Origin: Dimargaris cristalligena
Taxonomy: Eukaryota
DNA length: 20,000 nt
Assembly: GCA_003614675.1 (NCBI GenBank)
Contig: ML002222.1
Location: 55,810-75,809 of the forward strand
Direction of reading: 5' to 3'
Below are positions 1 through 18,316 of the stretch, one piece after another. The translations under genes and the position numbers were made by a program. The notes below the pieces were generated by a model. That model ran no database searches. It was not told the DNA's origin and saw nothing but the letters and a program-made list of their open reading frames with translations. Within the stretch, counting starts at the first letter, position 1. Each line of letters opens with the position of its first letter.

Positions 1-886
1 GGAACGGTAAGTCTGGCTACAGTAGAATAGCACGGTGGTTAGTCTCGAGTCACTAAGTTCAGTTTAGATGAGTGATTACTATTATACACACACACACACA
101 CATATATATATATACAATACTGGTAAACCACTGACTCGGGCTTTCCAGACAGTTGAACCAACACCCCTCTTCCGAACTGCTTTATCAACCCTAATCAAGG
201 CACTCCATACCCCACTCGCTTCACACAATCCCTACTTACTAGATTCATCTCCGATCCGGACATTTGCTCCCGAATCCGGGAGTGCTTCACGGGTCTGTAC
301 CCCCTGGACTCCACCCCGGCCGGCCGGCAGGCTCTCCAGCAAGCCTTAGCCACGCCTGAACGGTTTGTATTGAAACCCCAGCGGGAGGGCGGGGGCAACA
401 ATGTCTACGGCCATGATATCCCTAGCTTCATTCAGACCCTGTCCCCGAAGGAACTTGGGGGATATATCCTTATGGATCTCATCTGCCCACCACCCACGAG
501 TAATATTCTCATCAATCAAGGCCAGCTGCACCACGGACCTGTAATTAGCGAACTTGGTATTTTCGGTGTCTGGTTGAGGTAAGACCACCGGCTTAGTTAG
601 CGATGACCAATAGCATCAATGATGTGGTGATGGTACCCCCGCAACTACAACAAGACCAGCTAAAAAAGGTGTACCTTGTGCTTCATGAATTAACCCAGTC
701 TTTATTATCTTATACATTATATCTAATTTGTCCCGGATACTTTGATTGCCCCTCCCCTCTAGTGACGCCAATACGGTCCATTTGAACGCGGAAGCGGGCC
801 ATCTATTACGTACCAAAGTGGCATCATCCAACGAAGGAGGAATTGCGGCCGGTTTTGGGGTTATCGACAGCCCCTTGCTAATTTAA
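1..886 (+). CDS. GSH2: Glutathione synthetase (eukaryotic ATP-grasp type), 3' part; join(<1..6,243..578,763..886)
   Basis: Spliced translation reads ERFISDPDICSRIRECFTGLYPLD...PERFVLKPQREGGGNNVYG...YILMDLI...VISELGIFGVWL-SDANTVHLNAEAGHLLRTKVASSNEGGIAAGFGVIDSPLLI*. It contains the KPQREGGGNN glycine loop, SELGIFG and the GHLLRTK..EGG.AAG C-terminal motifs. Introns 7..242 (GTAAGT..TAG) and 579..762 (GTAAGA..TAG) keep the frame. Confidence 0.96.
86..114. repeat. (CA)n(TA)n compound microsatellite in GSH2 intron
   Basis: Run of AC repeats followed directly by TA repeats, read from the sequence. Confidence 0.9.
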
Positions 887-1255: not shown

Positions 1256-3756
1256 TTATTGTTTGGGAGGGGATGAAGATAACGATTCCACTATTGCATT
1301 TCTATCTGTGGAGATCGTTGGGAATAAGCACTCACCTATTACAATGCAAGTATTCGTACATAAATGATTTCATTACTGGGCTACCATGGCATCCAGTGTG
1401 TTTTGGATATTGGATGGAACTGCACTACGCTGGCTATTTAACGTATCCCATGGCTGGCTGGGTTAGCCAGTCGACTATTTTTGCCATGAAAATCGGAGGT
1501 ATTCAGCAACCGCGAGCCCTTCCGCTTACGCAATAGAGTAGCACTAATGCCGTGGTGCAACCGGGCCAAAATATCTCTCCCTTCGGGATACTGCCTGTAT
1601 TTTCGCAGGGCCTGTCCATCATGATTTCACGGGCTTTCGGTGGTGAGTGGTGTGCTTCCCTCTTGTTATTCTAACCTCCTCTTCCTCCCCCGCATTCACA
1701 CCCACTTGACTACCCCACCCATACTAATTCGGTTCTGCCTACGGCTCTGACTTGAATGACCCAGCAAGAGGATCTGGGTTCTTTCTCCCTATAATAGCAC
1801 CGCTACAGTGGCGTAGCAGCGCAAGCAGATGACCTAACCCAAGGACCAGGCATGGGTGGTGGCGGAGCTACTGAATGCTGTGGTATGGTAGGTAGACTTG
1901 GCTTAATCGGTAGGCGTACCTTGACCTACATTGGCATGTAAATTATAAATGAGAATACCGATATTATTATTATTATCATAATTGTTGTTGTTATTCTCGG
2001 GACCCTCCGGTGGTAATTGAAAAATAGGGAATATTTTAACTCTTACTAATGCTATCCCCAAAATCCGCCCGAATTCCGAATATGGATGAAATTGATGGAC
2101 ATAGTGATGGTAAGTAAGAATGTAACGCCTGCATAGCGTCGCACCACGCCTCCATCAGGGATTAGTAGTCAGACAACGGATCAACGAGCTAATTTCCGGA
2201 AGCCCGTAAGGTAAAAATGGGATTGAGTGGGTCTCGTGCTGTAATCCTAGAAATTGGGGAGGGGGTTGCCATCGGTCCTATCAGCCTTGGTGAAAGCGGC
2301 GAGACAGCTGATACCCAACGTGGGCCAGGGGCAGCCATGCCATTAGTGTGTAATAGGAGGATGAGGAGGAGGACTTTAGTTGGGGAGGGTGTGCCTGACT
2401 ATACCATAGGCAATGGAATAAATCAAAGTGGAGGCGAGGGGATATGGGTAATCTGCGTGGCGAGTTCCCCCAGCCAGGGAATGTGAGCCCCCCCCCTAGG
2501 TTTGGCCAGGAGATATAAGCGCCCCGTGCCGCGGAGGTGGCCATGGAGAGGGCGACTACAACATTCTGGAGAGAAAGGAGGGTTGGAAATAACAACCACT
2601 GTGACCTGTACCAGCAAAGACCGTCTGTCCCACCATAACCATCTTCGGCTAATTAGGCTTGCTTATAATGTACCTTTGGGGCTGGCGGAGCGGACTTCCC
2701 CTTCCTATGGGGCCGCACTATACCTATTTCCGGGGACCCCTTTATAAAAAGGGTGGGTTGAGACGGGTGATGCTATTGATTTACACTGCAGCTCCCCGCG
2801 TCTATTGCGGCCCCTTACTCTGTCTTAAACCGGTGGTTTATTATATACCCAACCCACCACCACACCCCATGGAATAGGCCGGGCCACTGAAACGTGTCCA
2901 TTTGTCCGCGCCCACCTTTGGGCCATTAATTCTATTCTATTAATCTTTGTATTAGCCTTTAGTAGTGGCCTCTTGGTGATGTGATATACCCTCCCATCCT
3001 TTCATATCGGCCACTACAACTAACCGCTCCCTTTCGCGCCCTGCTCTTTTTATTATTATTATTATTCGCCTTGACTCCCTACCATCTATTAATATTACAT
3101 AGTCCATCATTATTATTCCATTTTCATACCCAATTCCTTTATTTTTAGATATCCCTGAGGAGGTTCATTTGACCTGCGCACTGGCTTCACAGTGGCTGCC
3201 CCCTGGTGTTTCTCCATCCCCACTCCTTCAGTTCGGTCACAGGCAGGGTGGTTGATGCCTAGACGGAATATCTGCATTAGATAGTCAAGGGTGCCGGTGG
3301 GCGAGCCCGTTATTCAATCCAGCCATGTCCTGGTTTCTTTTACACTGATTATCTCTTCCTTTTAATATCTACCCCATTATCTTTTAGCCGACTATAGCGA
3401 TAGAGGACATCGTTAGCTCATAACCACCCCCCCCCCCGCTCTGCTCCAAAACCCCGCTCCCATAGATAGTCACCGTTTTGTGTCTTGTTATCGTATCGTT
3501 CGACTTATTTTAGGTTTAGCTATTTATTCTACCCTCGTTCTATCTCTCTCTATTTTTACCTATTCCTTCCGTGTTCACCTATTCTCCTTCCTTTCCCGCA
3601 CTTCACTGGGCTACTCTAGTATTGCTTTTGACGTCAGGACATACCTCGCCTGACCCCCGTCTCCTTTGTCACACACGGTGTCACCTGTGCAGTTATCGCG
3701 GCCATCGAACACCTTAAGCACGCCAGAGGCGAACTCTCCCATCTTGCTACTTGGCT

Positions 3757-3850
3757 ATGCGGTCGCGGGCTTCTTTACTACCATGGGTCCTCTGGACCCT
3801 GGTGATGTATACTACACACTCGGCCAGCGGGCTGCCCGCTTTCCACACTC
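3757..3850 (+). other. Probable first coding exon of the ATPase, encoding a signal peptide
   Basis: MRSRASLLPWVLWTLVMYTTHSASG-LPAFHT has a basic n-region, a hydrophobic core and an A-S-G cleavage-like site. Donor GTAAGT at 3851 is phase 1 and matches acceptor CCTTAG ending at 4456 (C|CT = Pro, then NQYDLDGNQCP). Confidence 0.75.
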
Positions 3851-6800
3851 GTAAGTTTGCTGATTGTTTTTTATTTGATCATATAGGGAGGGCTATTATT
3901 CACTACCGCCTGGTCCCTGGCTCAGTAATGATGGTACATCTTAGTAATCCTCTGTACCTTGGAGATTAAAAGTGAATATTTTGCCGTCCAAATGGCGGGG
4001 TGAAGAGTCGCAAGTATCACTCTTTGTGATCTTGTAATGGACTGGAACTCCCCTCCCAAAGGGTCGAGGCCAAGTATGCGGAGTTAGGCCGGCGATACTA
4101 TTTGTTGTGCTACGCCAATCGCTGGCTGAATCCCCCCTTCAACTAGACCATTGTGATATATATATATATATATATATATATCTCCAGGTTCCTCCTAAGG
4201 GGGGATGGTGGGCGTACACTATTCCTTACGGGCAACTAAGCTACATGTCATGATGGGTGGGTATGGCTCCTTTTTCGCACCTCCTCCGGTTGGACAAGAG
4301 AAAGAGGAGCTTGGCCGCTCCAATAACCGCCGTCATTTAACTAATTCCATTTAACCGCCAATGATTTTTTGGTGTATCTTCTTGTCCTACACTCACCCAC
4401 CCACAACGGCTTCCGCTTCCACCATGGGGCCCTCCTCGCCTCCTTTTCTACCTTAGCTAACCAGTATGATCTCGACGGTAATCAATGCCCACTGTACCCC
4501 AAGCGGGACGTCGTTTGTCCCCTCGTTTGCGTCACTGACCTATCGGAATGCCCCCGTTTACTTCAGCCCAACTGCCCCAACGGCAAGCAATTTTGCCTGG
4601 ACAGCACCTGTGCCGACCAATGCCCCAAAGACCTGCCGAACCCCTGCTTATGTGGCGAAACCAGCTACCGCGACAGTGGCGAAATGGTAATCCCCTGCCG
4701 GAAATCGCCCACCATTGACATCCCGCACTATAATATGCGCAACGGCACGGCCCAAACCCAAGGGGCGTGTCTCAAGGCCCTCAACACCACCTCCCGCATC
4801 TTAAATTATGGGGCTAAACCCACGGACCCCGTCTGGTTGGATTGCTCCCGCCGGGGATGGAACGAAGATGGTGATTCAGACGCCACCGAAACGACCCCCC
4901 CCGGGGTTTACCTACGTGGAGCCCATTTGGTTGGCGCTGTGGACCATGCTGGGGTTGGAGGCCATGGTGCTAACTGGGTGGACCCTGTACAAACAGTGGC
5001 GGGAAAAGGCGCAGCGTCGGGGCGTCGGGGTGGCGGTCGGGGGAACAACCGCGGACCCCCTGGCGAAGGAAACGGCCGATTCGGAGCTGAGTTCCGTGGA
5101 AGGGTTGGATCGGGAAAATTACAAACTCACCGCGTATCGAACCTCACTCTACGGCAATTTCGCCGCGTACTCGCTAGTCGCCATCAGCTTGAGTCTGGTC
5201 GTTTACATGTTCCTTATCATTGCCGATTATTACGGCGCTCTGTTAGGTAAGTATCGAAGGGCATATTCCCTAGGGTATTATTGCCTGGCTGGGTGGTTTT
5301 TGGGATATCAACTTTCCGGTGGTTTAATTTTTTTTTGATGAGCTCATCTAACCTTAATGTGAGCTAACCCTGCCCCTTCGTGTACTAATCTCCTCCCCCA
5401 TATGATTTTATCTGGCTCGAATTGTTCTCCCTTGGCATCGCTGGTAATGAACATTTAGGCGAAGCGTTTGCCCTAACCCACCAGACCTCGGCCTTGTCTT
5501 CGCAGCTATTTATCATATCTTGGTATCTGATGGTGGCTTGGTTCATTACGCTGAACATTACCCGCCACCGGTTGCGCAACTTCTTTCGTATCCAGACCCG
5601 TCCGGCAGAGGGCCATTTTATTCAAGTGGAGCAGCAATTAGCACCCCTAATCTTGCTGGATGACAACAGTGTGATTCTTCGACACATTCGTCGAATTGAG
5701 ACCTCCATCAAATCATTGGTTGGGTAAGCATCATCTTAAAGCTATACTTAATGTGATAATCATAGTATTGGTAAATACTGCCTTCAACTCGTATATACGG
5801 CTTGCCCCGTACTATTCAACCCCCTAATCAATCACGGTCTTTATTGAATTGAATAATGTCTGTTATTATTTTATTAGCTGGCACGTCCATGTCACAACCA
5901 CTCGAATCGAAAAGACCGCCCATGGAAGACGCTACTTCACCTACCAATGCACCCGCTATGTATACGACTCGGTGCACGGTCGGTTCGCTCCCTTCGGGTT
6001 CCAGGTGGGGACCACGGGCGCGGAGCTCCTCAAACAACAGTCGGGTATTCTTCAAGGGGAAGCCGACCGTAGGATTGAGCTACTCGGCTCGAATTTCATT
6101 ACGGTGGCGGTGCCCTCCTTGTTCAATGCCATCCTGCAGGAATTCACCGGGTTCTTTTACCTCTACCAACTCACCATTCTATTGCTCTTCTATTATTACG
6201 CCTATTACGAAATGTAAGTCGCTCTCCACAATCGCCTTCGCGTATCACCTGTAAATCCACGTATCCCCATGGATTACATTGTTGGATTTTTAATATTACC
6301 CGCACCCCAATATCCAGACTAACTGTATACTATCTTTTGTTTCGGATGGCCATTTTTATTTACGGTTGATATTCCCATATTTTTGCATCATTTTTAGCGG
6401 TTTGGTGGATACCGGTGTGGTACTGATCTCAGCCTTCGTCAAGGTTGCCATCCGCTTACAATCCGAAAAGCGCCTTAAATCCATGGCCGAACACGAAAGT
6501 ACCTGCCAAGTACTCCGGGACCAAACCTGGCGCACCACTACCACAGCCGACCTAGTTCCCGGGGACGTGTACCAAATCGACGTGGACCAGGTGGTTCCCG
6601 CCGACTCAGTTGTTCTCTCGGGTAATATTGTTGCCGACGAGAGTTCGTTGACGGGCGAGCCCCTACCGATCCGTAAATTCCCGGTTTCCCTGGATATGAC
6701 TGATTTTGACCTGCACACCACCGGCAAGACCAACGCCCTCTTCGCCGGCACGACCATCTCGCAGGCTCAGCTCGAACTCCACTCTAGTCGCTGTACTGCC

Positions 6801-9238
6801 TTGGTGTACCGCACGGGAACGGCCACCGACAAGGGCCAACTGGTTCGTAAGATTCTGTTCCCTAGCCCCGTATCGTTTGTATTTGACGAACAGCTCAAGA
6901 TCGTCATGATGATTCTCGCCCTCGAGGGCCTCTTCATGTTTGGACTTAGTCTCTGGCTCCAGCAGCAGAATATTAACGCATCTTGGTTCAACGGTATGTT
7001 CTGTTTGGCCCAAATCATCAGCCCCATTTTACCCGCGGCGCTGGTCGTGGGCCAGTCGGTGGCGTCCACCCGGCTGCGCAAACAGCAGATCTATTGCGTG
7101 GATCTGCCACGCATTATGGTGGCGGGCAAGACGCAGATTTTCTGTTTCGACAAAACGGGCACGCTGACCAAAGAGGGCCTCGATTTCTACGGGGTCCAGT
7201 GCGTCCGGCCCACGCTGGAGGGTATCGTGGACAGTGCCCCCCCGGTTTGATAACCGCACGGAAGATTTCCCCGGAGTGCCCCGCCTCATGCGCCTGGCGA
7301 TGGCGTCATGCCACGCCGTGACGGAACTCAATAACCGGCTCATTGGCAATCCCGTGGACATTGAAATGTTCCGGGCGACGGGGTGGGACCTCTGTCACCC
7401 GGACAACCCCGACTGCCTTGACATGGCCGTGACCGCCAACGAACGGCTCCTGGTGCTCCGGCGGTTCGAGTTTGTCCACGCCCGCATGTCCATGTCGGTC
7501 GCGGTGCTCGATACCTCCACCCACCACGTGCATATCTTCGTGAAGGGTTCGTTTGAGAAAGTGCGCGACATGTCGGACCCGGGAGGCCGACCCGCCGATT
7601 ATGACCGGGTGACCAGTCAGTTGGCCCGGGAGGGCTGCTACGTGCTGGCGGTGGCCCACCGGGATTTGGGGCCCGTCGACCCGGACTTAATCCGGACGTG
7701 GAGTCGCGAGGATTTTGAAAGTCACGTGGTGCTGCTAGGCCTTATTTTGTTCAAGAATAACCTTAAAACGGACACGGCCGACGCCATGGCGGAACTGAAA
7801 CAGGGGTCGACCCGTACCGTCATGATTACGGGGGACACGGCCCTAACGGGAGTGTACATTGCCCAGGCCTGTGGCATGACCCCGTCCGGGGACCGGATGT
7901 TGCTCGGCGACATCGAGATGGACAACCCCCCTCCTGATGGCCGCCCCTCCGACGAGGACGGCCCGGCGGAAACTGCTTATGAAGTGGTCTGGCGGGACGT
8001 GGACACCCACGAAGTAGTCGATGTGAATCGCGCGCTCCTCGCCAGTGTGACGATGGACTCCAATGCCTTGTCCAGTACCCTCGTGGGCAAGGCCGGTCCC
8101 CCGCAGGTCGGCCAGGGCCTCGAATTGGCCGTTACCGGCCGGGCCTTTAACGCTTTGGTCGAGCGCGACCTAATCCGGGAATATTTGCTGAATATCCGGG
8201 TGTTCGCCCGCATGACGCCACAGGACAAGGTTGCGTGTGTGCAACTCCACATGGAACGGGGTATCACGGCCATGTGCGGGGACGGCGGCAACGACTGCGG
8301 GGCGCTCCGGGTGGCCCACGTGGGCATTGCGCTGAGCGAAGCCGAAGCGTCCATCGTGTCACCGTTTAGCACCAGCGTACGGTCCATTTATTCGTGCGTG
8401 GAACTCCTGCGCCAGGGTCGGGCGGCACTCGCTACGTCGTTCGCGGGTTACAAGTACCTCATCCTCTACGGCCAGACCATGGCCATGCTCAAGGCCAACT
8501 TTTTTTACTTCCAAGGGTCCATCGCCCAATCCCTCTGGATTTTCGTCGATGCGTTCATTACCATGGGCATGACCGCCTGTTTGGCCCTCAGTAAAGCGGC
8601 CCCCCCGGTTAGCCCCCCAACGACCCACCGCCCGCCTGCTGGGCATCGAAACCCTGACTTCTACGGTGGGGATCGTTCTCATCAACTGGCTATTTTTGGT
8701 CGGTGGGTACCTATGGCTGTACCAACAAACCTGGTTCCGCTGCCACGAATTCGACGCCCGTGGTATTGATATTGCCAAATGGTGGCTGTTGGGCGACAAC
8801 TACGAAAGCGCCTATTTGGCCTTTTTGACCATGTTCCAGTTTATCAACAATGGGGCGATTTTCAATTTCGGCTACCAGTTCCGGCAAGCCTGGTGGCGTA
8901 ATTACAGTCTGGTGGCCGTGTGGGCCGCATTTATTGCTATGATGAGCTACGTCGAATTAGCCGACCCGAACCGGCTGGGCTGTCTATTCCGCTTGAATTG
9001 CGGTAATCCCAAGGTTTTGGAGGAACTGGGCTTCCCCCGCCCCACGTTCGATATCGAACCGTACAATATTGACCAGGGCCACAATGTGTTCCCTCGGTCG
9101 GCCCGGTTTTGGCTATGGAGTTACAGTATCGCCAATATGGCTGTTGGTTTACTATGGGAGAGGGCCGTGGTGTTGGGACCTCTCCGTACGTTATTGCGAC
9201 GACTGTACCCCCAGTCTCGCCTGCAATTGAAACTGTAA
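3757..9238 (+). CDS. P5-type (P5B-like, ATP13A/Ypk9-related) P-type ATPase with N-terminal signal peptide and Cys-rich domain; join(3757..3850,4457..5246,5459..5723,5878..6213,6398..9238), three +1 frameshifts at about 4900, 7240 and 8603
   Basis: Motifs seen: DESSLTGE, CFDKTGTLT (phospho-Asp), ASCH, KGSFE, MITGD, VFARMTPQDK, MCGDGGNDCGAL, GIALSEAEASIVSPF, GRAALATSF. All four introns are GT-AG (donors GTAAGT or GTAAGC) with compatible phases. Removing one C at each of the three C-runs gives a 4323-nt ORF (1440 aa). Exon 1 is my inference from a signal-peptide-like sequence and a phase-compatible donor. Confidence 0.9.
4156..4181. repeat. (AT)13 microsatellite in ATPase intron 1
   Basis: Perfect AT run followed by CTCCAG. 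Confidence 0.9.
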
Positions 9239-10013
9239 TCTTTTTTCTTTAATACATTTTTTTAAATATATTTATCGTATGTCTTGTCTAGTGGAATTAT
9301 ACCAGCTGGAATACTATAATTCCCGCTCTCGTTGTTATTGCTGTTGTTTCTTCTATACTATATTATAAAGCGACCTCCTTGCATATGCTTAATCTACACC
9401 AAACCCCGTGATCTGGATATGACTATAGTAAAGAGTAGGATGTTCATCATCCGTGTAACTCATCGTGTCTCCCGAGCGAAGGTCCCATGTTGAGCGTCTA
9501 ACTACAGTCAATTATGAAAGACCCTCCCTAAGAATCGGGCACCTGGGCTAAGCAAAATGTATTATCCGAGTTTCTAGTCCGTTAAGGTCCATCATATTAC
9601 AAGACACGGACATGAAACCGAAACCCGCCTAGGCCATTAAGGATAGTGTATATGTAGAACACTTCCACTCTCATAATTAATATCGCAACCCAACAATTAG
9701 CTTGTAAAAAAAACACGAAAATGTCTTCACCATAACATTTATTTGGCAATGTCTCAAAACAATGGACGACATATTGTTGAATAATATATATATATATTGC
9801 AGAGACGAGACCGTAGCAACCCAACTTCCGATAAGGGTTGCGCAGGTGAAGGGACACGCGAATAGAGCGGAAGAGGATTGCCCCCCCCCCGGGACTAGTC
9901 GATCGGATCGGAGGAAGGGATGTGTGTGGATGTGAGGGGAGGAGGGGGGACGAGGCAAGGGTGTGGGGTGGGAGATGTGAGGGGAGATCTGCCGAATATT
10001 AGACAATCGACGC

Positions 10014-11258: not shown

Positions 11259-12758
11259 ATGCGCTGTCGATTCCCCACTCGTCCGCTCACGGCTCTGGTA
11301 CGTCGCTATCGGATTCAGGACCGAAACCAATAGACCCCAACACCGTTGGAATCCTCCAGTCCCCTGGTATGGAATTCCCTTTGGATTCCTTGCACTTAAG
11401 CAACACCAGTAACAGTAATAACTGATAATACCCGCCTATGCATATCCTATACCTTACACCCTCCTATTACACGTCACCAACAGACCCTGCAGTCCCAAGC
11501 CTCGCTAAATTCAGCCCGGCAGCCCGGCCTTGGTGCCCGCCGTTGGCTAGCGCAGAAAGTCGACATCCTGACCGAATCCGAATCTTCGTTCCAGGCCCCT
11601 TCTTTGAAGGCCAACCCGGCGTATGATGCCGCCATGGAGTTCTTGGCCAACCACGAAAAAGACGAACTGACCCAAGCGGAACGGATTAAGGAGTCGGTCG
11701 CAGCACTTCGCAAAGGTTCGTTAGTTGATCAAATCATTCCAGACAGATATGCCCAATGGTGAAATAAGGGATTTCGTCTAGTAACTATATATAACAAACA
11801 TACCCTGTGATTAATTCCTTGGACTTATTTATTTGGCTCGAAACACCCCAATTGCATTCGCTACATCTTCTCTGCGTGTACCCACCCACACACACACATA
11901 TATATATATATAGGCACCCCTAGTCCATCGGCAGAGGCTCAGATCCAGGCCGCTGAACAAGAAGCCTACAATCACGAAGTGGAGGCCGAAATTTATAGCG
12001 CGGAGACCCTGTGGAATTTCAGTCACAACAAGGCTGACCTGAACGTGCCCGTCTACCACTACCTGGCCCACCAGCAGTTCCAGACCGAGTACCTACCGAT
12101 CCTGACGCAACGGATCACCCAAATGTTCGTGGTACCCGACGTTCTCCCGCCCAGCGCGGTCCGCCCCGAACTGAAGCTCCAGTTGACGTATCCGGCCGCC
12201 CCGGAGACCCCGTTTACCGCGGGGGTCGTTTTGGAACCCAAGCATACCCTCGAGACCCCCACCGTGTCCGTGGTCCCTTTCCACCAGGATACCCGGCTCT
12301 ATACCCTCGTCATGGTGGACCCCGATCACCCGAACCAAACCACCCAGCGTTACGAAGAGCGCTGCCATTGGTTGGCCACCAACTTGGCCCTCAGCGTGTC
12401 CATTGCCTCCCCCGCCACTTTTGACACGGTCCTCCCGTACTTGCCCCCCCACCCGGCCCAAGGGTCTAAGCGGCACCGCTATACCTTCCTGCTCCTGGAG
12501 CAGCCCAACGGCGGGCGGGACCGTCTGGAGGTCAAGTTAGCCACCGAATCGCGGGACTTTAACACCCGTAGTTTCTGCGCCGAGCACGGGTTGGCCGTCC
12601 GTGGCATCACCTTTTTCCGGGCCGAGTACGACGAGTCGGTCAGGGGGGTGTATGAGAATATCCTGGGCACCCCTAGTCCCTGTTACCAGGCCTTCCCGTA
12701 CATTGATCCTCGCGTTGGCCCCGACGGCAAGATGATCAATCGTTACAAATACTTCTAA
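11259..12758 (+). CDS. MRPL35: Mitochondrial large-subunit ribosomal protein mL38 (PEBP family); join(11259..11297,11484..11715,11914..12758), about 371 aa
   Basis: The Arg-rich, acid-free N-terminus (MRCRFPTRPLTAL-TLQSQASLNSARQPGLGARRWL) resembles a presequence. It is followed by NPAYDAAMEFL, then PVYHYLAHQQF..ILTQRITQMFVVPDVLP. The PEBP core reads YTLVMVDPDHP..HW..YLPPHPAQGSKRHRYTF. Introns are GTACGT..CAG and GTTCGT..TAG; the exact intron 2 borders are ambiguous. Confidence 0.9.
11887..11912. repeat. (CA)n(TA)n compound microsatellite at the 3' end of MRPL35 intron 2
   Basis: The repeat runs directly into the TAG at 11911..11913. Confidence 0.9.
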
Positions 12759-13847: not shown

Positions 13848-16800
13848 TTAGGCCAGGTTTTGCAGCACCGAATTGACCTTAGCCAGCTGGGCGGGTTTCA
13901 GCTGTTCGTCGGCGTTAGCCTGGACACTCTGCAGAATACCCTTGAGTTGCGGGAGGTGGGGCTGCACGGCGGGGTGACCTTCAGCGATCAAACCGCACAC
14001 GAAGTCGTAAACGGGCTCATTTTCGGCGAAATCGGCCTGGAGGGGCAAGTGACGCACCAGGGTGCTGAGGATATCAGGGAGGGGCACGGCGGCCAGATCC
14101 TTCATGGAAATGCGGGCGAGAGCACCACAGGCATTATCTAGGAGATTCTTGGCGTTGCGGTGACGGTCGGCCTGGGCAAAGATGGTGTGCAGGGCACCCA
14201 GGACGGCGTTGACATCAATGGGGGCGCTACCGGCGGGGGCGTAGAAGACCAGGGCACCCACGGCGAAGGCGGCGTTGCTCTTCACTTCGGGGTCGGGGTC
14301 GGCCAGGGCCTGGAGGAACAAAGGAAGTAGGTCACCGACGAAGGGGGCACAGCCTTCCTTGAGGCCGGACACGGATTCGCCCAGGCAGCCAATGGCCATG
14401 GACCGTTCGGGCACATCCTCATTGGCGGTGTAGTAGCCAGCAATAAAAGGCAGGAACACCTGGAAGTAGGGGGTGAAGTGGGGGCCCAGCACCAAGCACA
14501 GAGCGGCCACTACATCGGCGGCCCCACCGGTAAGTACGGCGTCCCGCTTCTGCTTGTCCTCGTCGTCCAATTGGTTATCTTCATCCGCATCATCTTCCTG
14601 GCAGAGAGCCTTCTTCTGCAGAATGTTGCCCAGTTCATTACAAAGGGCGGTCAGGTTGGCATCGGGACTCTGGGAGCTGGCCGATAGGTCAGCGGCCGAG
14701 TCGGCGGAACCGGCACCCAGGGACTTGTACACCAAGAGAGCGGGGCCCATAGTCTTGAGAGCCTGGGTCAATTCGACGCAGATTTGGATCACGACGCCCA
14801 CCACCTCCTCTTCGGCCCAAACGGCCATAACGGCGGGCATGACAATCTGGATCAGCTGGGCCAGAGTCTGGTTCACGGGAACCTGGACGGGCCAGCCGGC
14901 CACCCAAGGGGCGTTACCGGAAATGCGGTGGAAAGTGAGCAGGCACTTGAACAGGGCCCCGACGACCGCCGTACGGACGTGGTCGGCATCATGGTCGGCC
15001 AGCTTAACCAATTCCTGGATGGTAGCTTCGGCGTAGGGCAAGAAGTGGGTACCGGTGTTGCTGAAGATCTCACCCAACACGTCGGCAGCCACCTCCTTCT
15101 CGTCGGCCACGGCGGTATTGACGTAAAAGTCGTCTTCCTGGTCGGACAGCAGCTCCTCTTCGTCGTCCTCAAGGGCCGCAGTGACGGCGGCAGTCCCCTC
15201 GATATCGGTGGTACCGTCGCCGACCTGGATGCTCTCATCGACTCGGCAGCTCTGCAGAAGCGGGGGAACGACGAACTGGAGGTAGGGGGCAAAGTCATCG
15301 CCAAAGACCTCGCTGATGGTGCCGAAGAAGAGGAAAGTGCAGTCACGGAGACGGCCTGAGCTCAATTCCAGGCCCTCCAGAGCCAGCTTCATGAAACCCT
15401 CGAGGTGGGGAGCAAAGACTTCCTTACCCACGGCGCTGGCGATCACCCCCACGGTGTCAACGGCAATACCGCGCAGGGCAAAGTCGTCCTCCACGGTGGA
15501 GACGGTGAATTGGTGGCGCATGCGCTGGATAATGTTGTCGAAGTAGGGCAGGAAGGCGGAGCCAGCGGCGTTGGCGGCACTACCCAAGGCCCCGGTGACG
15601 GTGATCTGGATCTTGACGGGAGCGGTTTCCAGCAGGTGGGTCAAGCCATTGATCAGAGTGGGCAGGTATTCCACCACCACGGTCGAATCCATACCCTCCA
15701 GGATAGCGTCGAGGGCATTGCACGAGTATTTGATCACATCAGTGTGGGCGTCACCCATCAGGTTGAAGATAAGGGGCAGGAGGGTGGCGTGGTGTTCGGC
15801 AATTTCCTCCTCGAAGTTTTCGGCGAATGAGCCGAGGGCCATGCAGGCGGCGCGGCGGACCGAGATGGCGGGGTCCTGCAGACCGGCCACGACCAGACGG
15901 ATCAAGTCGTTGATCTTGTCGGTAATAAGGTCAACGGAGGGCTCAATCAATACGGCGAAGCTCAGCATAGCGGCCTTGCGGAAGGAAGGAGTGGGGTTTT
16001 GCATATACTGCAGCACCAATTGCATAGTCACGGGGAAGACGGCCGAGGCGGGCAGGTAGGTGCCCAAAGAAGATAGCGTGGTGAGGGCCACCTTGCTGGC
16101 ACTATCGTCATCATCGTCCTCATCATCACTATCGTCGGCAGACTGATCCTGGGCATCGCCGTCTTCGGAGGGCTCGGCAATAATGGGCATAAGGGCCTGG
16201 ATCAAAGGGGTAACCAGCTTGAGCTTCTGCAGCTTACTGCGCTTGAACATGGTGGCCATGGAGATAAAGGACAGGGCCATGCTGCGGATGGAATCGGGGT
16301 ACTGGCGGTTCCCGGCGACGGTCATGAAGAACTGGACGAGATCGGCAAAGTGCTTGGTCAACAGAGGAGTCTCCAGAACCAGCAGCGAATCAAACACATC
16401 GAAACCGTGGCTGACGCCCTCCTCGTCGCCGTTGCTCAGGCAATCCTCAATGACATTGACCATAGCCGGCACCAGGTCCCGGAAGGTCTTGACGTCCTCG
16501 GTATTTTCGGGTTCGAGGAACTCGGCGACCTTACCGAGGGCCTGCAGGGTAGTGACCCGCACGGTACGGGACTCGGGGTCGCGAATGGACTGGGCGAACA
16601 AACCGAACAGTTCGGCCAGGGCCTGGGAAGTGTTCTGCAGCTCGCCGTCGGCGATGACTTCGAACAGGGTGTACAGCACGTAGATACCGGTTTCCCGCTC
16701 GCTGGTCTGGGCGCTGCGGCTAAGCTGGAACAAAAAGGGGAGCAGCTCGGACCATTTGCCCAGGTCCTGGATCACTTCGGCAATGGCCGAGATGACCCGG

Positions 16801-17117
16801 GACAAAGCGTGCCGTACGGCGGCTTCGGGATCCTGGACGACTCGCTCGAGAAGGTGTTTCTGGATAGAGACCTGCAGCTCGGTGGGCACTTGCACCCACT
16901 GCTTGATCACCCGCTTACGGAGCTCGACGGCCGCCAGCTGGCGCAGCTCGGGGGCCGCGCCTTGGCTGGCGATCTCGGTCAGAGCGGGGACGCTGGCGGG
17001 TTGGCTATAGAAGTCCTTGTTCAGAGTGGCGGTCAGCGAGAGAATCTCCTGGGTGTCGGTGGCCTTGATAAACCGCTGGAGGGCTTCGTTCAAGCTGGCG
17101 GTGAATTGGGGGTCCAT
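13848..17117 (-). CDS. KAP123: Importin-beta family karyopherin, Kap123/importin-4-like, intronless, 1089 aa
   Basis: N-terminal IBN_N-like segment (LRQLAAVELRKRV..W) followed by HEAT repeats (VRRAACMALGSFAE, SCNALDAILEGM, ERSMAIGCLGE, VKSNAAFAVGAL, DNACGALARI) and acidic loops. Length fits Kap123/IPO4. Confidence 0.88.
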   Translation of the reverse strand: MDPQFTASLNEALQRFIKATDTQEILSLTATLNKDFYSQPASVPALTEIASQGAAPELRQLAAVELRKRVIKQWVQVPTELQVSIQKHLLERVVQDPEAAVRHALSRVISAIAEVIQDLGKWSELLPFLFQLSRSAQTSERETGIYVLYTLFEVIADGELQNTSQALAELFGLFAQSIRDPESRTVRVTTLQALGKVAEFLEPENTEDVKTFRDLVPAMVNVIEDCLSNGDEEGVSHGFDVFDSLLVLETPLLTKHFADLVQFFMTVAGNRQYPDSIRSMALSFISMATMFKRSKLQKLKLVTPLIQALMPIIAEPSEDGDAQDQSADDSDDEDDDDDSASKVALTTLSSLGTYLPASAVFPVTMQLVLQYMQNPTPSFRKAAMLSFAVLIEPSVDLITDKINDLIRLVVAGLQDPAISVRRAACMALGSFAENFEEEIAEHHATLLPLIFNLMGDAHTDVIKYSCNALDAILEGMDSTVVVEYLPTLINGLTHLLETAPVKIQITVTGALGSAANAAGSAFLPYFDNIIQRMRHQFTVSTVEDDFALRGIAVDTVGVIASAVGKEVFAPHLEGFMKLALEGLELSSGRLRDCTFLFFGTISEVFGDDFAPYLQFVVPPLLQSCRVDESIQVGDGTTDIEGTAAVTAALEDDEEELLSDQEDDFYVNTAVADEKEVAADVLGEIFSNTGTHFLPYAEATIQELVKLADHDADHVRTAVVGALFKCLLTFHRISGNAPWVAGWPVQVPVNQTLAQLIQIVMPAVMAVWAEEEVVGVVIQICVELTQALKTMGPALLVYKSLGAGSADSAADLSASSQSPDANLTALCNELGNILQKKALCQEDDADEDNQLDDEDKQKRDAVLTGGAADVVAALCLVLGPHFTPYFQVFLPFIAGYYTANEDVPERSMAIGCLGESVSGLKEGCAPFVGDLLPLFLQALADPDPEVKSNAAFAVGALVFYAPAGSAPIDVNAVLGALHTIFAQADRHRNAKNLLDNACGALARISMKDLAAVPLPDILSTLVRHLPLQADFAENEPVYDFVCGLIAEGHPAVQPHLPQLKGILQSVQANADEQLKPAQLAKVNSVLQNLA

Positions 17118-18316
17118 GGTGCAAAAACTGAATAGGATGGAGGCGCACTCGGCTGGGGACAGGTTGGAGAGGAAAAGGAGAAAAGCAGCGGAGTGTAGAG
17201 AGGGATCCGGTGCTGGGGGGTGGATAGGCTATATATTATTAGGCGGGGGTATATAAAGAAGGGGGTATATGGCTGAGTGAAATAGAAGCAGGGCTTGGGG
17301 AGACACCACAGGAACAGGGGATACTGAATTGAATGGTTCAATAGGAAAAAAAGACCGGGTGAATACGTGAAAATTGGGTGAGTTGCAAAGCGGTAAAATC
17401 AACCACTGGCACCGAAAAATGCAGAGTAGTCGTAAAAGCGACACAGCAGCCCAGGCCAATGTTCCTCCTATATACCAGAATAAAAGGTATTGAGCAGAAT
17501 CTATCCTTTTTTCTATTCCATTTTTTTTTTGTAAAAAAACTAGTTGGAGTACATATTATTATCATGCGGTCTAGGGAGGTGTGCGACGCAACAGCAGCCC
17601 CTTTACCATGGACCAGTAGTGACACAGCGAAGAGGGCGGACAATCATTGAAAAAAATATATATTTAAAGAAGTGTGTCCACAGCCGTCGTCACAATGCCC
17701 CCCATTCGACTAAAAAACCCAGTCAAGTGAAGGGGAGACCACCGCTAACGAGAGGGCCTACTGAATAGCACTTATACAAGTAGAGCTGATTCCAAATGGC
17801 AGTCGTATAAAGAGTGCAGCCGCTATTGGAGTTGGTATGAATTAGTAGGTGGTTCTAGCCCCTTTTCGGCACCTGAACTGGGCCAGAAGCCGACGCAGTA
17901 CACGGACGGCCGAACAATACGGGTGAAATTCGGCCCAGCTGTATAGAGTTTTAAATGATACGTGCACTGGAAAATAGGCGGGATGAGTATTTTCAACTAG
18001 CAGTATTTGCCTCATACCGGATTTTTTCGTTACACAGCATGACTGAACTCCTCCCATGTGTATAATGTCATTCGAATAGCCCTACATTTAGGATGACTAG
18101 AATCATTCATAGGGCCGTGTCCTTGTGTTAAATATTTAGATTATATTAAATGGCATGCTGGTGGTCACTGGATGCCACAATAGCCACATACTTAATAGCA
18201 TTTATGGGCACAACTTCCTACTGAATAGATCACCCATAAGCAAGTCAAGCTTTTGGGACTTGTCTATTTAAATAAATTAGTCCAAAATTGATAGGTGCTA
18301 TTCTAAAGTCAGGGTG

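What the first reader, a model, noticed from the sequence alone, without database searches (positions are those of the whole stretch)
3757..5600. Receptor-like P5 ATPase: signal peptide, 13-Cys ectodomain and extra TM helices fused to the pump
Seen: a signal-peptide-like exon precedes about 130 aa with 13 Cys (CPLYPKRDVVCPLVCVTDLSECPRLLQPNCPNGKQFCLDSTCADQCPKDLPNPCLCG...IPC...GAC...WLDC) and two N-glycosylation sequons (NGT, NTT). Three hydrophobic segments follow (IWLALWTMLGLEAMVLTGWTLY; FAAYSLVAISLSLVVYMFLIIA; LFIISWYLMVAWFITLNI) before the standard P5 core. Established: yeast Spf1/Ypk9 and human ATP13A1-5 have no cleavable signal peptide or disulfide-rich ectodomain. Inference: this is a distinct P5 subfamily with a luminal or extracellular sensor/binding domain, or a fused accessory subunit. 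Similar unstudied proteins may exist in other early-diverging fungi and protists; I cannot verify that here.
Basis: partly seen in the sequence, partly recalled or inferred. Interest (0 to 1): 0.75.

Follow-up and report, generated by a model that had tools for sequence, protein, structure and literature searches.

The report
Pump with built-in cysteine-rich outer domain
This fungal gene encodes an ATP-driven membrane pump that, unlike textbook pumps of its class, starts with a secretion signal and a small disulfide-rich domain on the far side of the membrane, a layout shared by many early-branching fungi.

Summary
The window (Dimargaris cristalligena) holds one five-exon gene, 3757-9238 on the + strand, for a 1440-aa P5-type ATPase. 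It begins with a signal peptide, a 13-Cys ectodomain, an extra helix (TM0) and a membrane hairpin. Three frameshifts, one exactly between the Cys domain and TM0, are assembly errors: contigs of four read sets drop one C at these C-runs.

The architecture is conserved. All 13 Cys are kept in 107-108 of 108 full-length relatives from non-Dikarya fungi, and an ichthyosporean also has the domain. Every named protein carrying the domain is a P-type ATPase.

The core is not a canonical P5A or P5B pump. The M4 motif is SP(L/I)LP in place of PPALP or PPELP. My tree places it in a third clade with alveolate and other protist pumps. That fits the "P5C" clade named in 2025 (PMC12217143), a paper that does not mention this N-terminus in its main text or text-held supplements.

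The ectodomain folds confidently (pLDDT 85) and matches no Pfam family or solved fold.

The "receptor-like" function is untested. I favour a fused, beta-subunit-like luminal cap. This is a new variant of a known kind; interest is moderate to high.

The parts
3757..3850 (+). Exon 1. It encodes the signal peptide (residues 1-24, 3757-3828) and the start of the conserved P-A-F-H-T motif. The last base is the first base of a split codon.
   Evidence: Translation. GTAAGT donor at 3851. The motif xP(A/V)F(N/H)T.N.(Y/F)DL.G..CPL spans the exon 1/2 junction in homologues.
3851..4456 (+). Intron 1 (606 nt, GTAAGT...TAG). It contains an (AT)n run at about 4148-4191.
   Evidence: Read contigs break at 4148-4191. 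No RNA run was available to confirm the junction.
4457..4924 (+). First part of exon 2: the 13-Cys ectodomain (first Cys codon at 4486-4488, last Cys in WLDC at 4831-4845) and an acidic stalk leading to TM0.
   Evidence: The 13 Cys are kept in 107-108 of 108 relatives. The AF2 model has pLDDT 85 and pTM 0.74. No Pfam family. No solved fold matched.
4895..4902 (+). C8 run carrying a one-base over-call (assembly error). As written, it shifts the frame between the ectodomain and TM0.
   Evidence: One C is left out at 4895 in the contigs of 4 of 4 runs. P0004 reads ...ATETTPPGFTYVEP....
4925..4990 (+). TM0 (IWLALWTMLGLEAMVLTGWTLY), the extra membrane helix. It is followed by a basic stretch, KQWREKAQRR (4991-5020).
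   Evidence: K+R averages 0.93 in the 15 residues before TM0 and 4.43 in the 15 after; 56 of 58 rows are more positive after it. A helix is predicted at the equivalent place in the homologue model.
5159..5246 (+). Helix Ma of the hairpin, plus the conserved DYYG motif, to the end of exon 2.
   Evidence: D263, Y264 and Y265 are (nearly) invariant in 58 relatives.
5459..5723 (+). Exon 3: the hairpin loop, helix Mb (5506-5559), and the start of the cytosolic N-terminal domain.
   Evidence: The junctions agree with deposited model P0004.
5878..6213 (+). Exon 4: the rest of the cytosolic N-terminal domain, M1, and the start of M2.
   Evidence: (weak PF00690 match).
6398..9238 (+). Exon 5: the A domain, M3, M4 with the SPILP motif (7020-7034), DKTGTLT (7149-7169), the N and P domains (ITGDT at 7825-7839, GDGGNDC at 8278-8298), M5-M10, and the stop codon at 9236-9238.
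   Evidence: PF00122 at E=1.5e-26. Best solved relatives are ATP13A2 at 349.6 bits, a Ypk9-type pump at 334.5, ATP13A1 at 256.9 and Spf1 at 218.4. Coordinates.
7237..7243 (+). C7 run with a one-base over-call (assembly error) inside the P domain.
   Evidence: One C is left out in 3 of 4 runs. P0004 reads ...DSAPRFDNR....
8600..8606 (+). C7 run with a one-base over-call (assembly error) between M6 and M7.
   Evidence: One C is left out in 3 of 4 runs. P0004 reads ...SKAAPRLAPQ....
8732..9004 (+). Luminal loops L7/8 (WFRCHEF, 8732-8752) and L9/10 (GCLFRLNCG, 8978-9004), which carry three further conserved Cys.
   Evidence: C1251 and C1331 (P0004 numbering) are kept in 108 of 108 relatives, and C1337 in 106 of 108.

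Best explanation
Shown:
- This is one intact gene of Dimargaris cristalligena encoding a 1440-aa P5-type P-type ATPase.
- The pump core belongs to a third P5 lineage with an M4 motif of SP(L/I)LP. That lineage is most likely the "P5C" clade of PMC12217143.
- The N-terminus consists of a signal-peptide-like leader, a conserved ectodomain of about 135 aa with 13 Cys, an extra helix (TM0), a variable cytosolic linker, and a two-helix hairpin before M1-M10.

Inferred topology: the leader sends the N-terminus into the ER lumen, where the Cys domain is oxidised and N-glycosylated. TM0 crosses the membrane N-out/C-in, and the hairpin brings the chain back to the cytosol. The catalytic domains therefore sit in the cytosol as in every P-type pump, giving 13 membrane helices and a luminal or extracellular N-terminus.

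Inferred function: the ectodomain plus TM0 act as a built-in accessory subunit, comparable to the Na,K-ATPase beta subunit or to Cdc50 of lipid flippases. It would sit as a cap over the luminal face of the pump, needed for folding, ER exit and stability, and would shape the luminal mouth of the transport path.

The luminal side has 16 conserved Cys: 13 in the domain, 1 in loop L7/8 and 2 in loop L9/10. The odd Cys of the domain may therefore form a disulfide to the pump's own loops.

The substrate is unknown. The hydrophobic M4 motif, and the only studied clade member (TgFLP12, reported as a fatty-acid exporter), point to a hydrophobic or amphipathic cargo and not to polyamines.
For: Gene and fusion:
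- Read contigs remove the three frameshifts, and an independent assembly gives a contiguous protein.
- The corrected CDS encodes 1440 aa with no internal stop and has four GTAAG(T/C)...TAG introns.
- The exon 1/2 junction is spanned by a conserved motif in homologues.

Co-occurrence of the domain with the pump:
- A search of 1.84 billion representative proteins with the Cys domain gave only 67 hits. The domain was always N-terminal, and no hit showed it in another protein context.
- A profile search gave 13 hits, and 13 of 13 carry PF00122.
- All named hits are fungal. One ichthyosporean protein also matches at E=2e-14.

Topology:
- Among 80 relatives that have the motif and at least 4 residues before it, position -1 is A, S or G in 77 and position -3 is V, T, A, I or S in 78.
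- The positive-inside rule holds at TM0 in 56 of 58 rows.
- 54 of 58 relatives have at least one N-glycosylation sequon in the ectodomain.
- In the AF2 model of a homologue's N-terminal 465 aa, helices fall at the leader, TM0, Ma and Mb.

Cysteine conservation: 13 plus 3 luminal Cys are conserved.

Ectodomain: it is a confident, compact fold with pLDDT 85.

Clade:
- The M4 motif is SPLLP, NPLLP, SPILP and similar in 143 of 143 family proteins that carry DKTGT and a scorable M4 motif, and PPALP in 0.
- The same motif type occurs in protist relatives, whereas canonical P5B has PPALP and P5A has PPELP.
- In the tree, the Cys-domain group is one clade (SH-aLRT 96). It is sister to the protist group (together 99) and separate from P5B and P5A.
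- An AU test rejects a union with P5B (p=3.9e-5).
- PMC12217143 describes a third clade that is present in fungi and alveolates and absent from animals and yeasts.
Against: - No transcript evidence exists for the 3850/4457 junction, because no RNA run was available.
- Signal-peptide cleavage and topology rest on heuristics. SignalP and DeepTMHMM were not available.
- The accessory-subunit role and the interdomain disulfide are inferences from Cys counts and analogy. I could not fold the full-length protein (1415-1440 aa exceeds the 1200-aa limit), and no natural relative of 1200 aa or less holds both the ectodomain and M7-M10.
- The positions of the window's two sequons are poorly conserved (8 of 58 and 17 of 58 rows).
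- Identity of this clade with the published P5C clade is not proven. That paper's tree species are only in an image, and I could not tell which Toxoplasma gene P0258 is. Toxoplasma and Neospora join my clade only at SH-aLRT 84, on long branches.
- The tree is a quick LG+G4 search, and the groups for the AU test were named after the tree had been seen.
- Non-family rows were limited to proteins of 1463 aa or more by the search filter.
Confidence: 0.6

Rival explanations
1. Substrate-capture domain. The ectodomain binds the transported molecule (a lipid, fatty acid, polyamine or metal) on the luminal or outer side and hands it to the pump, like a tethered binding protein.
For: The domain sits on the side from which P5B and P4 pumps take up cargo (established knowledge of those families). 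It is strictly conserved and always fused to this pump. Protist relatives carry other, unrelated luminal N-terminal domains on the same TM0 scaffold, as would fit exchangeable specificity modules.
Against: No resemblance to any known binding fold or family. The domain is small (124-150 aa) and rich in disulfides. No pocket analysis was possible.
Confidence: 0.2
2. Receptor or sensor. The ectodomain senses an outside ligand and regulates pump activity, making the protein a "transceptor".
For: Only the general layout supports this: signal peptide, Cys-rich ectodomain, a single helix, then a variable cytosolic linker of 30-117 aa.
Against: There is no signalling domain. The cytosolic linker is variable and predicted disordered. 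No known ligand-binding family was matched. P5 pumps studied so far reside in internal membranes (passages of PMC3355532, PMC12217143), where a luminal domain would not meet outside ligands.
Confidence: 0.12
3. A derived canonical P5B polyamine pump. On this reading it is the early-fungal orthologue of Ypk9/ATP13A2 that merely gained an N-terminal extension.
For: The best solved relatives by sequence are ATP13A2 (349.6 bits) and a Ypk9-type pump (334.5 bits), ahead of P5A at 256.9 and 218.4 bits. JGI labels relatives "cation-transporting ATPase 13A3/4/5".
Against: The PPALP motif, called invariant in P5B (abstract of PMC5856429 as listed; passage of PMC10654040), is absent in 143 of 143 family proteins. 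PF12409 is found in canonical P5B hits but not here. The tree and the AU test separate the two groups. A chytrid-grade fungus (Gonapodya) holds a canonical PPALP pump as well.
Confidence: 0.06
4. Annotation artefact. There are two neighbouring genes, a small secreted Cys-rich protein and an ATPase starting at an internal ATG, joined only by a forced frameshift correction.
For: In the window as written, the two parts are in different frames. ATG codons exist in the ATPase frame near 4808 and 4869. Some database hits are short, ending soon after the domain, so stand-alone forms elsewhere cannot be fully excluded.
Against: Contigs from 4 of 4 read sets restore a single frame, and a second assembly agrees. 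108 full-length relatives from many genera have the same continuous layout. The frame-1 continuation past 4900 translates to low-complexity nonsense.
Confidence: 0.02

Closest known systems
P5C-ATPases (TgFLP12 of Toxoplasma gondii; clade named in PMC12217143, 2025)
   Same: - A third P5 lineage beside P5A and P5B.
- Reported as present in fungi and alveolates and absent from animals and yeasts, which matches the distribution I see.
- My tree joins this family with Chromera and other protist pumps (SH-aLRT 99), and more weakly with Toxoplasma and Neospora (84).
- More than 10 membrane helices (TgFLP12 is named for 12).
   Different: - The paper reports no N-terminal targeting sequence for TgFLP12 and does not mention a signal peptide or a Cys-rich domain (0 occurrences in the main text and text-held supplements).
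- The 13-Cys domain was found only in non-Dikarya fungi and one ichthyosporean.
- Protist members have other N-termini.
- The M4 motif of Toxoplasma and Neospora (LPLWLP) differs from SPLLP.
- TgFLP12's reported role (apicoplast fatty-acid export) cannot apply in fungi as such.
P5B-ATPases (human ATP13A2-5, yeast Ypk9; polyamine transporters)
   Same: - Closest solved structures by sequence.
- All catalytic motifs are shared.
- There is an N-terminal membrane-associated hairpin before M1.
   Different: - M4 is PPALP in P5B and SP(L/I)LP here.
- The PF12409 N-terminal domain is absent here at E<=0.001.
- The sequence alignment to ATP13A2 starts only at residue 367-375 of P0004.
- P5B N-termini are cytosolic (passages of PMC5837089), whereas here the N-terminus is predicted luminal.
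- The AU test rejects one clade.
P5A-ATPases (yeast Spf1, human ATP13A1; ER transmembrane-helix dislocases)
   Same: - P5 core.
- Two extra N-terminal membrane helices (Ma, Mb), comparable to the hairpin here.
   Different: - M4 in P5A is PP(D/E)LPxE (passage of PMC10654040; rows P0259 and P0261).
- Lower sequence similarity: 256.9 and 218.4 bits.
- No signal peptide or ectodomain.
Accessory subunits of P-type pumps (Na,K/H,K-ATPase beta subunit; Cdc50 of P4 flippases); recalled knowledge, not tested by sequence
   Same: - A membrane-anchored, N-glycosylated, disulfide-bonded luminal or extracellular domain beside the pump.
- One anchoring helix next to the core.
   Different: - Here it is fused to the N-terminus of the pump rather than being a separate protein.
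- No detectable sequence similarity or listed fold similarity.
- The function is not shown.

Membership tests
P-type ATPase, type P5 | Catalytic motifs: DKTGT phosphorylation site, TGE(S) in the A domain, TGD, GDGxND | tested here: met
   DKTGTLT at 7149-7169, ITGDT at 7825-7839, GDGGNDC at 8278-8298. SLTGEP is seen in P0004. PF00122 at E=1.5e-26.
P-type ATPase, type P5 | Closest solved relatives are P5 pumps, well ahead of P2 and others | tested here: met
   ATP13A2 349.6 bits, Ypk9-type 334.5, ATP13A1 256.9, Spf1 218.4. The best non-P5 match is about 100 bits.
P-type ATPase, type P5 | Extra N-terminal membrane segments before M1 | tested here: met
   Hydropathy peaks fall at P0004 residues 243-261 and 286-304. 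Helices are predicted at 238-265 and 281-310 in the homologue model.
P5B (Ypk9/ATP13A2-5) | PPALP motif in M4 | tested here: not met
   SPILP here. 0 of 143 family proteins have PPALP. Canonical P5B rows show PPALP.
P5B (Ypk9/ATP13A2-5) | P5-ATPase N-terminal domain (Pfam PF12409) | tested here: not met
   No PF12409 match on P0004 at E<=0.001 or on the exon pieces at E<=0.01. The precomputed labels show it on the canonical P5B hits only.
P5B (Ypk9/ATP13A2-5) | Groups with canonical P5B in a phylogeny | tested here: not met
   It forms a separate clade. Holding it with P5B costs 87.8 lnL units, AU p=3.9e-5. This is a quick search with limited sampling.
P5A (Spf1/ATP13A1) | PP(D/E)LPxE motif in M4 | tested here: not met
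   SPILPAAL here, against PPELPMEL in the P5A rows.
P5C (PMC12217143) | Third clade, outside P5A and P5B, that includes alveolate pumps | tested here: met
   27 rows (the Cys-domain family plus protist rows, including three Chromera proteins) form one group at SH-aLRT 99. P5B and P5A lie outside it.
P5C (PMC12217143) | Same clade as TgFLP12 (TGGT1_289070) and PF3D7_0504000 | tested here: inconclusive
   A Toxoplasma protein (P0258, 2473 aa) and its Neospora relative join at SH-aLRT 84 on long branches. I could not establish which Toxoplasma gene it is. The paper's taxon list is not readable as text.
Pump accessory subunits (Na,K-ATPase beta, Cdc50) | Fold or sequence similarity of the ectodomain | tested here: inconclusive
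   No Pfam hit. Foldseek best E is 4.4. VIA-align best Z is 2.5 among 48,161 chains. Absence from these lists does not exclude a relation.
Pump accessory subunits (Na,K-ATPase beta, Cdc50) | Separate polypeptide that assembles with the pump | tested here: not met
   The domain is fused in one reading frame, so this can only be a functional analogy.

The most novel reading that the evidence does not exclude
These proteins would be the first P-type ATPases with a cleaved signal peptide and a luminal N-terminus. They would be 13-helix pumps whose built-in, disulfide-knotted domain has a previously unseen fold and is covalently tied by a disulfide to luminal loops L7/8 or L9/10. That domain would gate or feed the luminal entrance.

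The TM0 scaffold is shared across the whole third P5 clade, and different lineages plug different luminal modules onto it: the 13-Cys domain in fungi and ichthyosporeans, and other domains in euglenid-like and other protists. This would imply that specificity or regulation from the luminal side is the defining innovation of the clade.
Probability: 0.3. Interest if true: 0.78.

Novelty: new variant of a known kind. Interest (0 to 1): 0.6.

Why it matters
By established knowledge, P-type ATPases have both termini in the cytosol, and where they need a luminal partner (the beta subunit, Cdc50) it is a separate protein. A conserved family with a signal peptide, a luminal disulfide-rich domain and an extra helix fused to the pump changes that picture.

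It also gives the recently named and almost unstudied third P5 clade a clear structural hallmark.

The family is present, often in several copies, in Mucorales, Entomophthorales, Kickxellomycotina, Zoopagomycotina, chytrids and Blastocladiomycota, some of which are genetically tractable. It is absent from the animal and yeast hits seen here. It therefore offers a way to learn what this clade transports and what the luminal module does.

There is a practical point too. Both deposited models of this gene mis-call the N-terminus, and one of them hides the frameshifts with false introns. Automated annotation has therefore obscured the feature.

Tried and rejected
- Whole genome: none is held for this window, so paralogues, including a possible canonical P5B in Dimargaris, could not be searched.
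- RNA evidence: no RNA holder was listed, so the 3850/4457 junction has no transcript support. This is no evidence either way.
- Complex prediction (ectodomain plus TM0 against M5-M10): no answer, score 0.02 against a mark of 0.34. The alignment was not used. This is not evidence for or against docking.
- ESM Atlas with the ectodomain: no usable hit.
- Foldseek against the PDB with the ectodomain: nothing at E<=0.001. VIA-align wide: best Z 2.5.
- Foldseek with the 465-aa N-terminal model of homologue P0138 (pLDDT 68): nothing significant, best E 0.67, although most top rows are P5 pumps. So it remains inconclusive whether the hairpin resembles P5A Ma/Mb or the P5B hairpin.
- The mixture-model tree (LG+C20 PMSF, 1344 columns) did not finish in two runs. 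I fell back to LG+G4 quick on 997 columns.
- Earlier findings of this scan: none.
- Literature: searches for a P5 pump with a signal peptide or a Cys-rich luminal domain, for "P5C" or "SPLLP", and for P5 pumps in early-diverging fungi found only PMC12217143 as relevant.
- Its text-held supplements contain none of the 11 organism names I searched for, because the trees are images. Supplements I could not read as text may list the fungal members.
- Considered and dropped: programmed +1 ribosomal frameshifting at the three C-runs. Read contigs simply lack one C.
- Considered and dropped: alternative first exons as in the deposited models P0004 (MGPLDPA...) and P0005 (...WTLYDLDG...). Both lose the conserved PAFHT motif, and P0004's lacks the leader.
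Full report
**What is in the sequence**

The region lies in a eukaryotic, intron-containing gene on the + strand.
- An ATG at 3757 opens a 94-nt exon that ends at a GTAAGT donor.
- After a 606-nt intron, exon 2 starts at 4457 behind a TAG acceptor. It reads NQYDLDGNQCPLYPKRDVVCPLVCVTDLSECP...WLDC.
- There are 13 Cys in the first 165 residues.
- Downstream exons carry a complete P-type ATPase core: PF00122 at E=1.5e-26, and DKTGTLT, ITGDT and GDGGNDC.

**Frameshifts**

As written, the window has three +1 frameshifts. Each lies in a run of 7 or 8 C followed by GG: 4895-4902, 7237-7243 and 8600-8606. The first falls exactly between the Cys domain and the first hydrophobic helix, so the claimed fusion depended on it.

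Two independent lines show these are assembly over-calls.
- A second deposited assembly of the same species gives a contiguous 1415-aa protein (P0004) that reads through all three sites as if each run were one C shorter.
- Contigs built from public read sets lack one C at 4895 in 4 of 4 runs, and at 7237 and 8600 in 3 of 4 runs each. One of those runs comes from a second study.

With the three bases removed and four introns spliced out (GTAAGT or GTAAGC ... TAG), the CDS is 4323 nt, giving 1440 aa with no internal stop. From NQYDLDG onward, 1408 residues equal P0004 apart from two substitutions.

**Organism and existing annotation**

The closest database proteins are from Dimargaris cristalligena. 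Both deposited models mis-call the N-terminus.
- P0004 starts MGPLDPANQY... from a weak donor and has no leader.
- P0005, flagged "LOW QUALITY PROTEIN", skips from ...WTL to YDLDG. It also jumps over the frameshifts with false introns.

In homologues this motif runs uninterrupted from the end of the leader into the domain. No RNA run was available to confirm it directly.

**How widespread it is, and whether the domain always rides on the pump**

- A search with the ATPase A-domain exon returned 120 listed relatives at 55-100% identity. Those I inspected mostly show the same N-terminus.
- A full HMMER scan of 1.84 billion representative proteins with the 148-aa Cys-domain piece gave only 67 hits. 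In all of them the match lies near the N-terminus.
- Where a hit is long enough, TM0, the DYY hairpin and DKTGT follow. The short hits (95-343 aa) end in or soon after these elements, as fragments of short contigs would. Stand-alone forms cannot be strictly excluded.
- A profile search gave 13 hits, and all 13 carry PF00122.
- Named sources are:
  - Kickxellomycotina: Dimargaris, Tieghemiomyces, Coemansia, Smittium, Spiromyces and others.
  - Zoopagomycotina: Piptocephalis, Syncephalis.
  - Entomophthoromycotina: Basidiobolus, Conidiobolus, Entomophthora, Massospora.
  - Mucoromycota: many Mucorales, Umbelopsis, Bifiguratus, Calcarisporiella.
  - Chytrids: Kappamyces, Polychytrium, Cladochytrium, Blyttiomyces, Phlyctochytrium, Physocladia and others.
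  - Blastocladiomycota: Allomyces, Blastocladiella.
- One non-fungal protein, from the ichthyosporean Creolimax, also has the domain (E=2e-14, 27% identity over 147 columns).
- No Dikarya or animal protein with the domain appeared.
- D. cristalligena has at least one paralogue with the same layout (P0006).

**Conservation**

In 108 full-length family members:
- The 13 ectodomain Cys are kept in 107-108 rows.
- Three more Cys in predicted luminal loops are kept just as well: one in L7/8 (108 of 108) and two in L9/10 (108 and 106 of 108).

This gives 16 conserved luminal Cys, 13 in the domain and 3 in the loops. That count is what prompts the idea of one disulfide between the domain and the loops. 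It is an inference from counts only.

**Topology (inferred)**

- Leaders in the family have a basic start and a hydrophobic core. Among the 80 rows with the motif, position -1 is A, S or G in 77 and position -3 is V, T, A, I or S in 78, counted one residue before the conserved Pro. By a strict hydrophobicity cut, 70 of 106 rows pass. Many of the rest are truncated models.
- Around TM0, K+R averages 0.93 in the 15 residues before and 4.43 in the 15 after, and 56 of 58 rows are more positive after it. This fits an N-out/C-in orientation.
- 54 of 58 rows have at least one N-x-S/T sequon in the ectodomain. The window's own two sequon positions are conserved in only 8 and 17 of 58 rows.
- The linker between TM0 and the hairpin is 30-117 aa long and is predicted disordered.
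- An AF2 model of a homologue's first 465 residues (pLDDT 68) shows helices for the leader, TM0, Ma and Mb. A beta-rich cytosolic domain follows.
- For the catalytic domains to be cytosolic, TM0 must cross the membrane once, and the hairpin must cross it twice or not at all.

The hairpin is the P5 hallmark.

**The ectodomain itself**

With a 31-sequence alignment of natural N-terminal fragments, AF2 gives a confident compact model: mean pLDDT 85, pTM 0.74, and low confidence only in the acidic stalk.

It matches nothing known:
- No Pfam family, for it or for any of the 31 fragments.
- No PDB chain by Foldseek (best E 4.4).
- No PDB chain by VIA-align over 48,161 representatives (best Z 2.5).
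- No Atlas cluster.

A missing match does not prove a new fold, but none is in hand.

**Which P5 pump is it?**

By sequence, the best solved relatives are P5B pumps (ATP13A2 at 349.6 bits, a Ypk9-type pump at 334.5). P5A pumps score lower (256.9 and 218.4), and alignment begins only at residue 367-375. The defining P5B features fail, however.
- M4 reads SPILP here. Across 143 family proteins it is SPLLP 98, NPLLP 18, SPILP 12, and other xP(L/I/V)(L/I)P forms 15, with PPALP 0.
- PF12409 is absent.

A length-filtered search (1463 aa or more) brought in several comparison groups:
- Canonical P5B with PPALP and PF12409, from basidiomycetes, an insect and Gonapodya.
- P5A with PPELPMEL.
- Protist pumps that share the SPL(L/I/V)P-type motif: three Chromera velia proteins, a euglenid-like transcript, and several unnamed ones.

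In a quick LG+G4 tree (42 rows, 997 columns):
- The 17 Cys-domain rows form one group (SH-aLRT 96).
- That group is sister to the 10 protist rows (94), and the two together have support of 99.
- Toxoplasma, Neospora and Amoebophrya attach at 84 on long branches.
- P5B (99) and P5A lie apart.

Forcing the family together with canonical P5B costs 87.8 log-likelihood units (AU p=3.9e-5; the group was named after the tree was seen).

A 2025 paper names just such a third clade "P5C". [quoted passage not shown] One member has been studied: TgFLP12, proposed as an apicoplast fatty-acid exporter (PMC12217143; passages read).

- I could not read that paper's taxon list, because the trees are images.
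- I also could not tell which Toxoplasma gene my P0258 is.
- Equating the two clades is therefore likely (about 0.75) but not proven.

**A clade-wide scaffold**

The protist relatives also have a helix in the TM0 position ahead of the DYY-type hairpin, but different luminal N-termini.
- Some have a short YPTGP-containing stub without a leader (Chromera and others).
- Others have a leader plus an unrelated domain of about 270-300 aa (the euglenid-like P0234 and P0235, and P0236 and P0238). hhalign of P0235 against the Cys-domain profile gives probability 0.4%.

A luminal N-terminus on TM0 thus looks like a feature of the whole clade. The 13-Cys module is the opisthokont (fungi plus ichthyosporean) version.

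**Mechanism, with odds**

Shown: one gene; a conserved leader, Cys domain, TM0, hairpin and P5 core; a third-clade core.

Inferred: the domain is luminal, oxidised and glycosylated.

The four readings, with my odds:
- **Built-in accessory subunit (about 0.6 including the architecture, about 0.45 for the role itself).** The domain plus TM0 work as a fused accessory subunit and luminal cap, analogous to the beta subunit and Cdc50. They may be disulfide-tied to L7/8 or L9/10.
- **Tethered substrate-capture module (0.2).**
- **Ligand sensor (0.12).**
- **Derived polyamine P5B (0.06).**

The two-gene artefact is excluded at the DNA level (0.02).

The cargo is unknown. The apolar M4 motif and TgFLP12's reported role hint at a hydrophobic cargo.

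**Limits**

- No transcript data, and no dedicated signal-peptide or topology predictor.
- No full-length fold, because of the 1200-aa limit. No natural relative of 1200 aa or less holds both ends.
- The docking test gave no answer.
- The tree is quick and unevenly sampled.
- The mixture-model runs did not finish.

**Verdict**

The "distinct subfamily" idea is right, but the clade was named in 2025. What appears undescribed, as far as the searches reach, is its signal peptide, TM0 and conserved 13-Cys luminal domain. This is a new variant of a known kind; interest 0.6.

Noticed in passing
window 4895-4902, 7237-7243, 8600-8606; also 2488-2496, 3427-3437, 9881-9890, 12444-12450: This assembly over-calls long C runs by one base: three cases in this gene were proven by read contigs. 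Other runs of 7 or more C exist in the window. The one at 12444-12450 lies inside the PEBP-like ORF and could hide a further frameshift.
   Followed up: partly
window 3757-4490 (proteins P0004, P0005): Both deposited models of this gene mis-call the first exon and lose the conserved PAFHT motif, and P0004's lacks the leader. P0005 also bypasses the three frameshifts with false introns and drops other short stretches.
   Followed up: yes
proteins P0234, P0235, P0236, P0238, P0239-P0243, P0251: Protist relatives with the same SPL(L/I/V)P-type M4 motif also have a TM0-like helix, but other luminal N-termini: a short YPTGP stub, or a leader plus an unrelated domain of about 270-300 aa. Their hairpin loop carries two conserved Cys (DYYDGC...DNLCFYG) that the fungal group lacks.
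   Followed up: partly
protein P0255 (Gonapodya sp.): This is a 2311-aa gene model that fuses an RNA polymerase III subunit to a canonical PPALP P5B pump. It is probably a mis-joined model. It does show that at least one early-branching fungus has a canonical P5B, so the two clades may coexist.
   Followed up: no
protein P0006 (D. cristalligena, 835 aa): A second D. cristalligena gene with the same leader, Cys domain and TM0 layout (77% identity in the A-domain exon). The species therefore has at least two such pumps.
   Followed up: partly
window 157-582 (+), 11811-12758 (+), 13848-17228 (-): Neighbouring ORFs match a glutathione synthase ATP-binding domain (partial), a phosphatidylethanolamine-binding protein, and an importin-beta/IPO5-like HEAT-repeat protein. 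These are ordinary housekeeping genes with no evident link to the pump.
   Followed up: no
window 4148-4191 (intron 1): An (AT)n microsatellite. All read-set contigs from the first study break here, so this part of the intron is poorly assembled.
   Followed up: no
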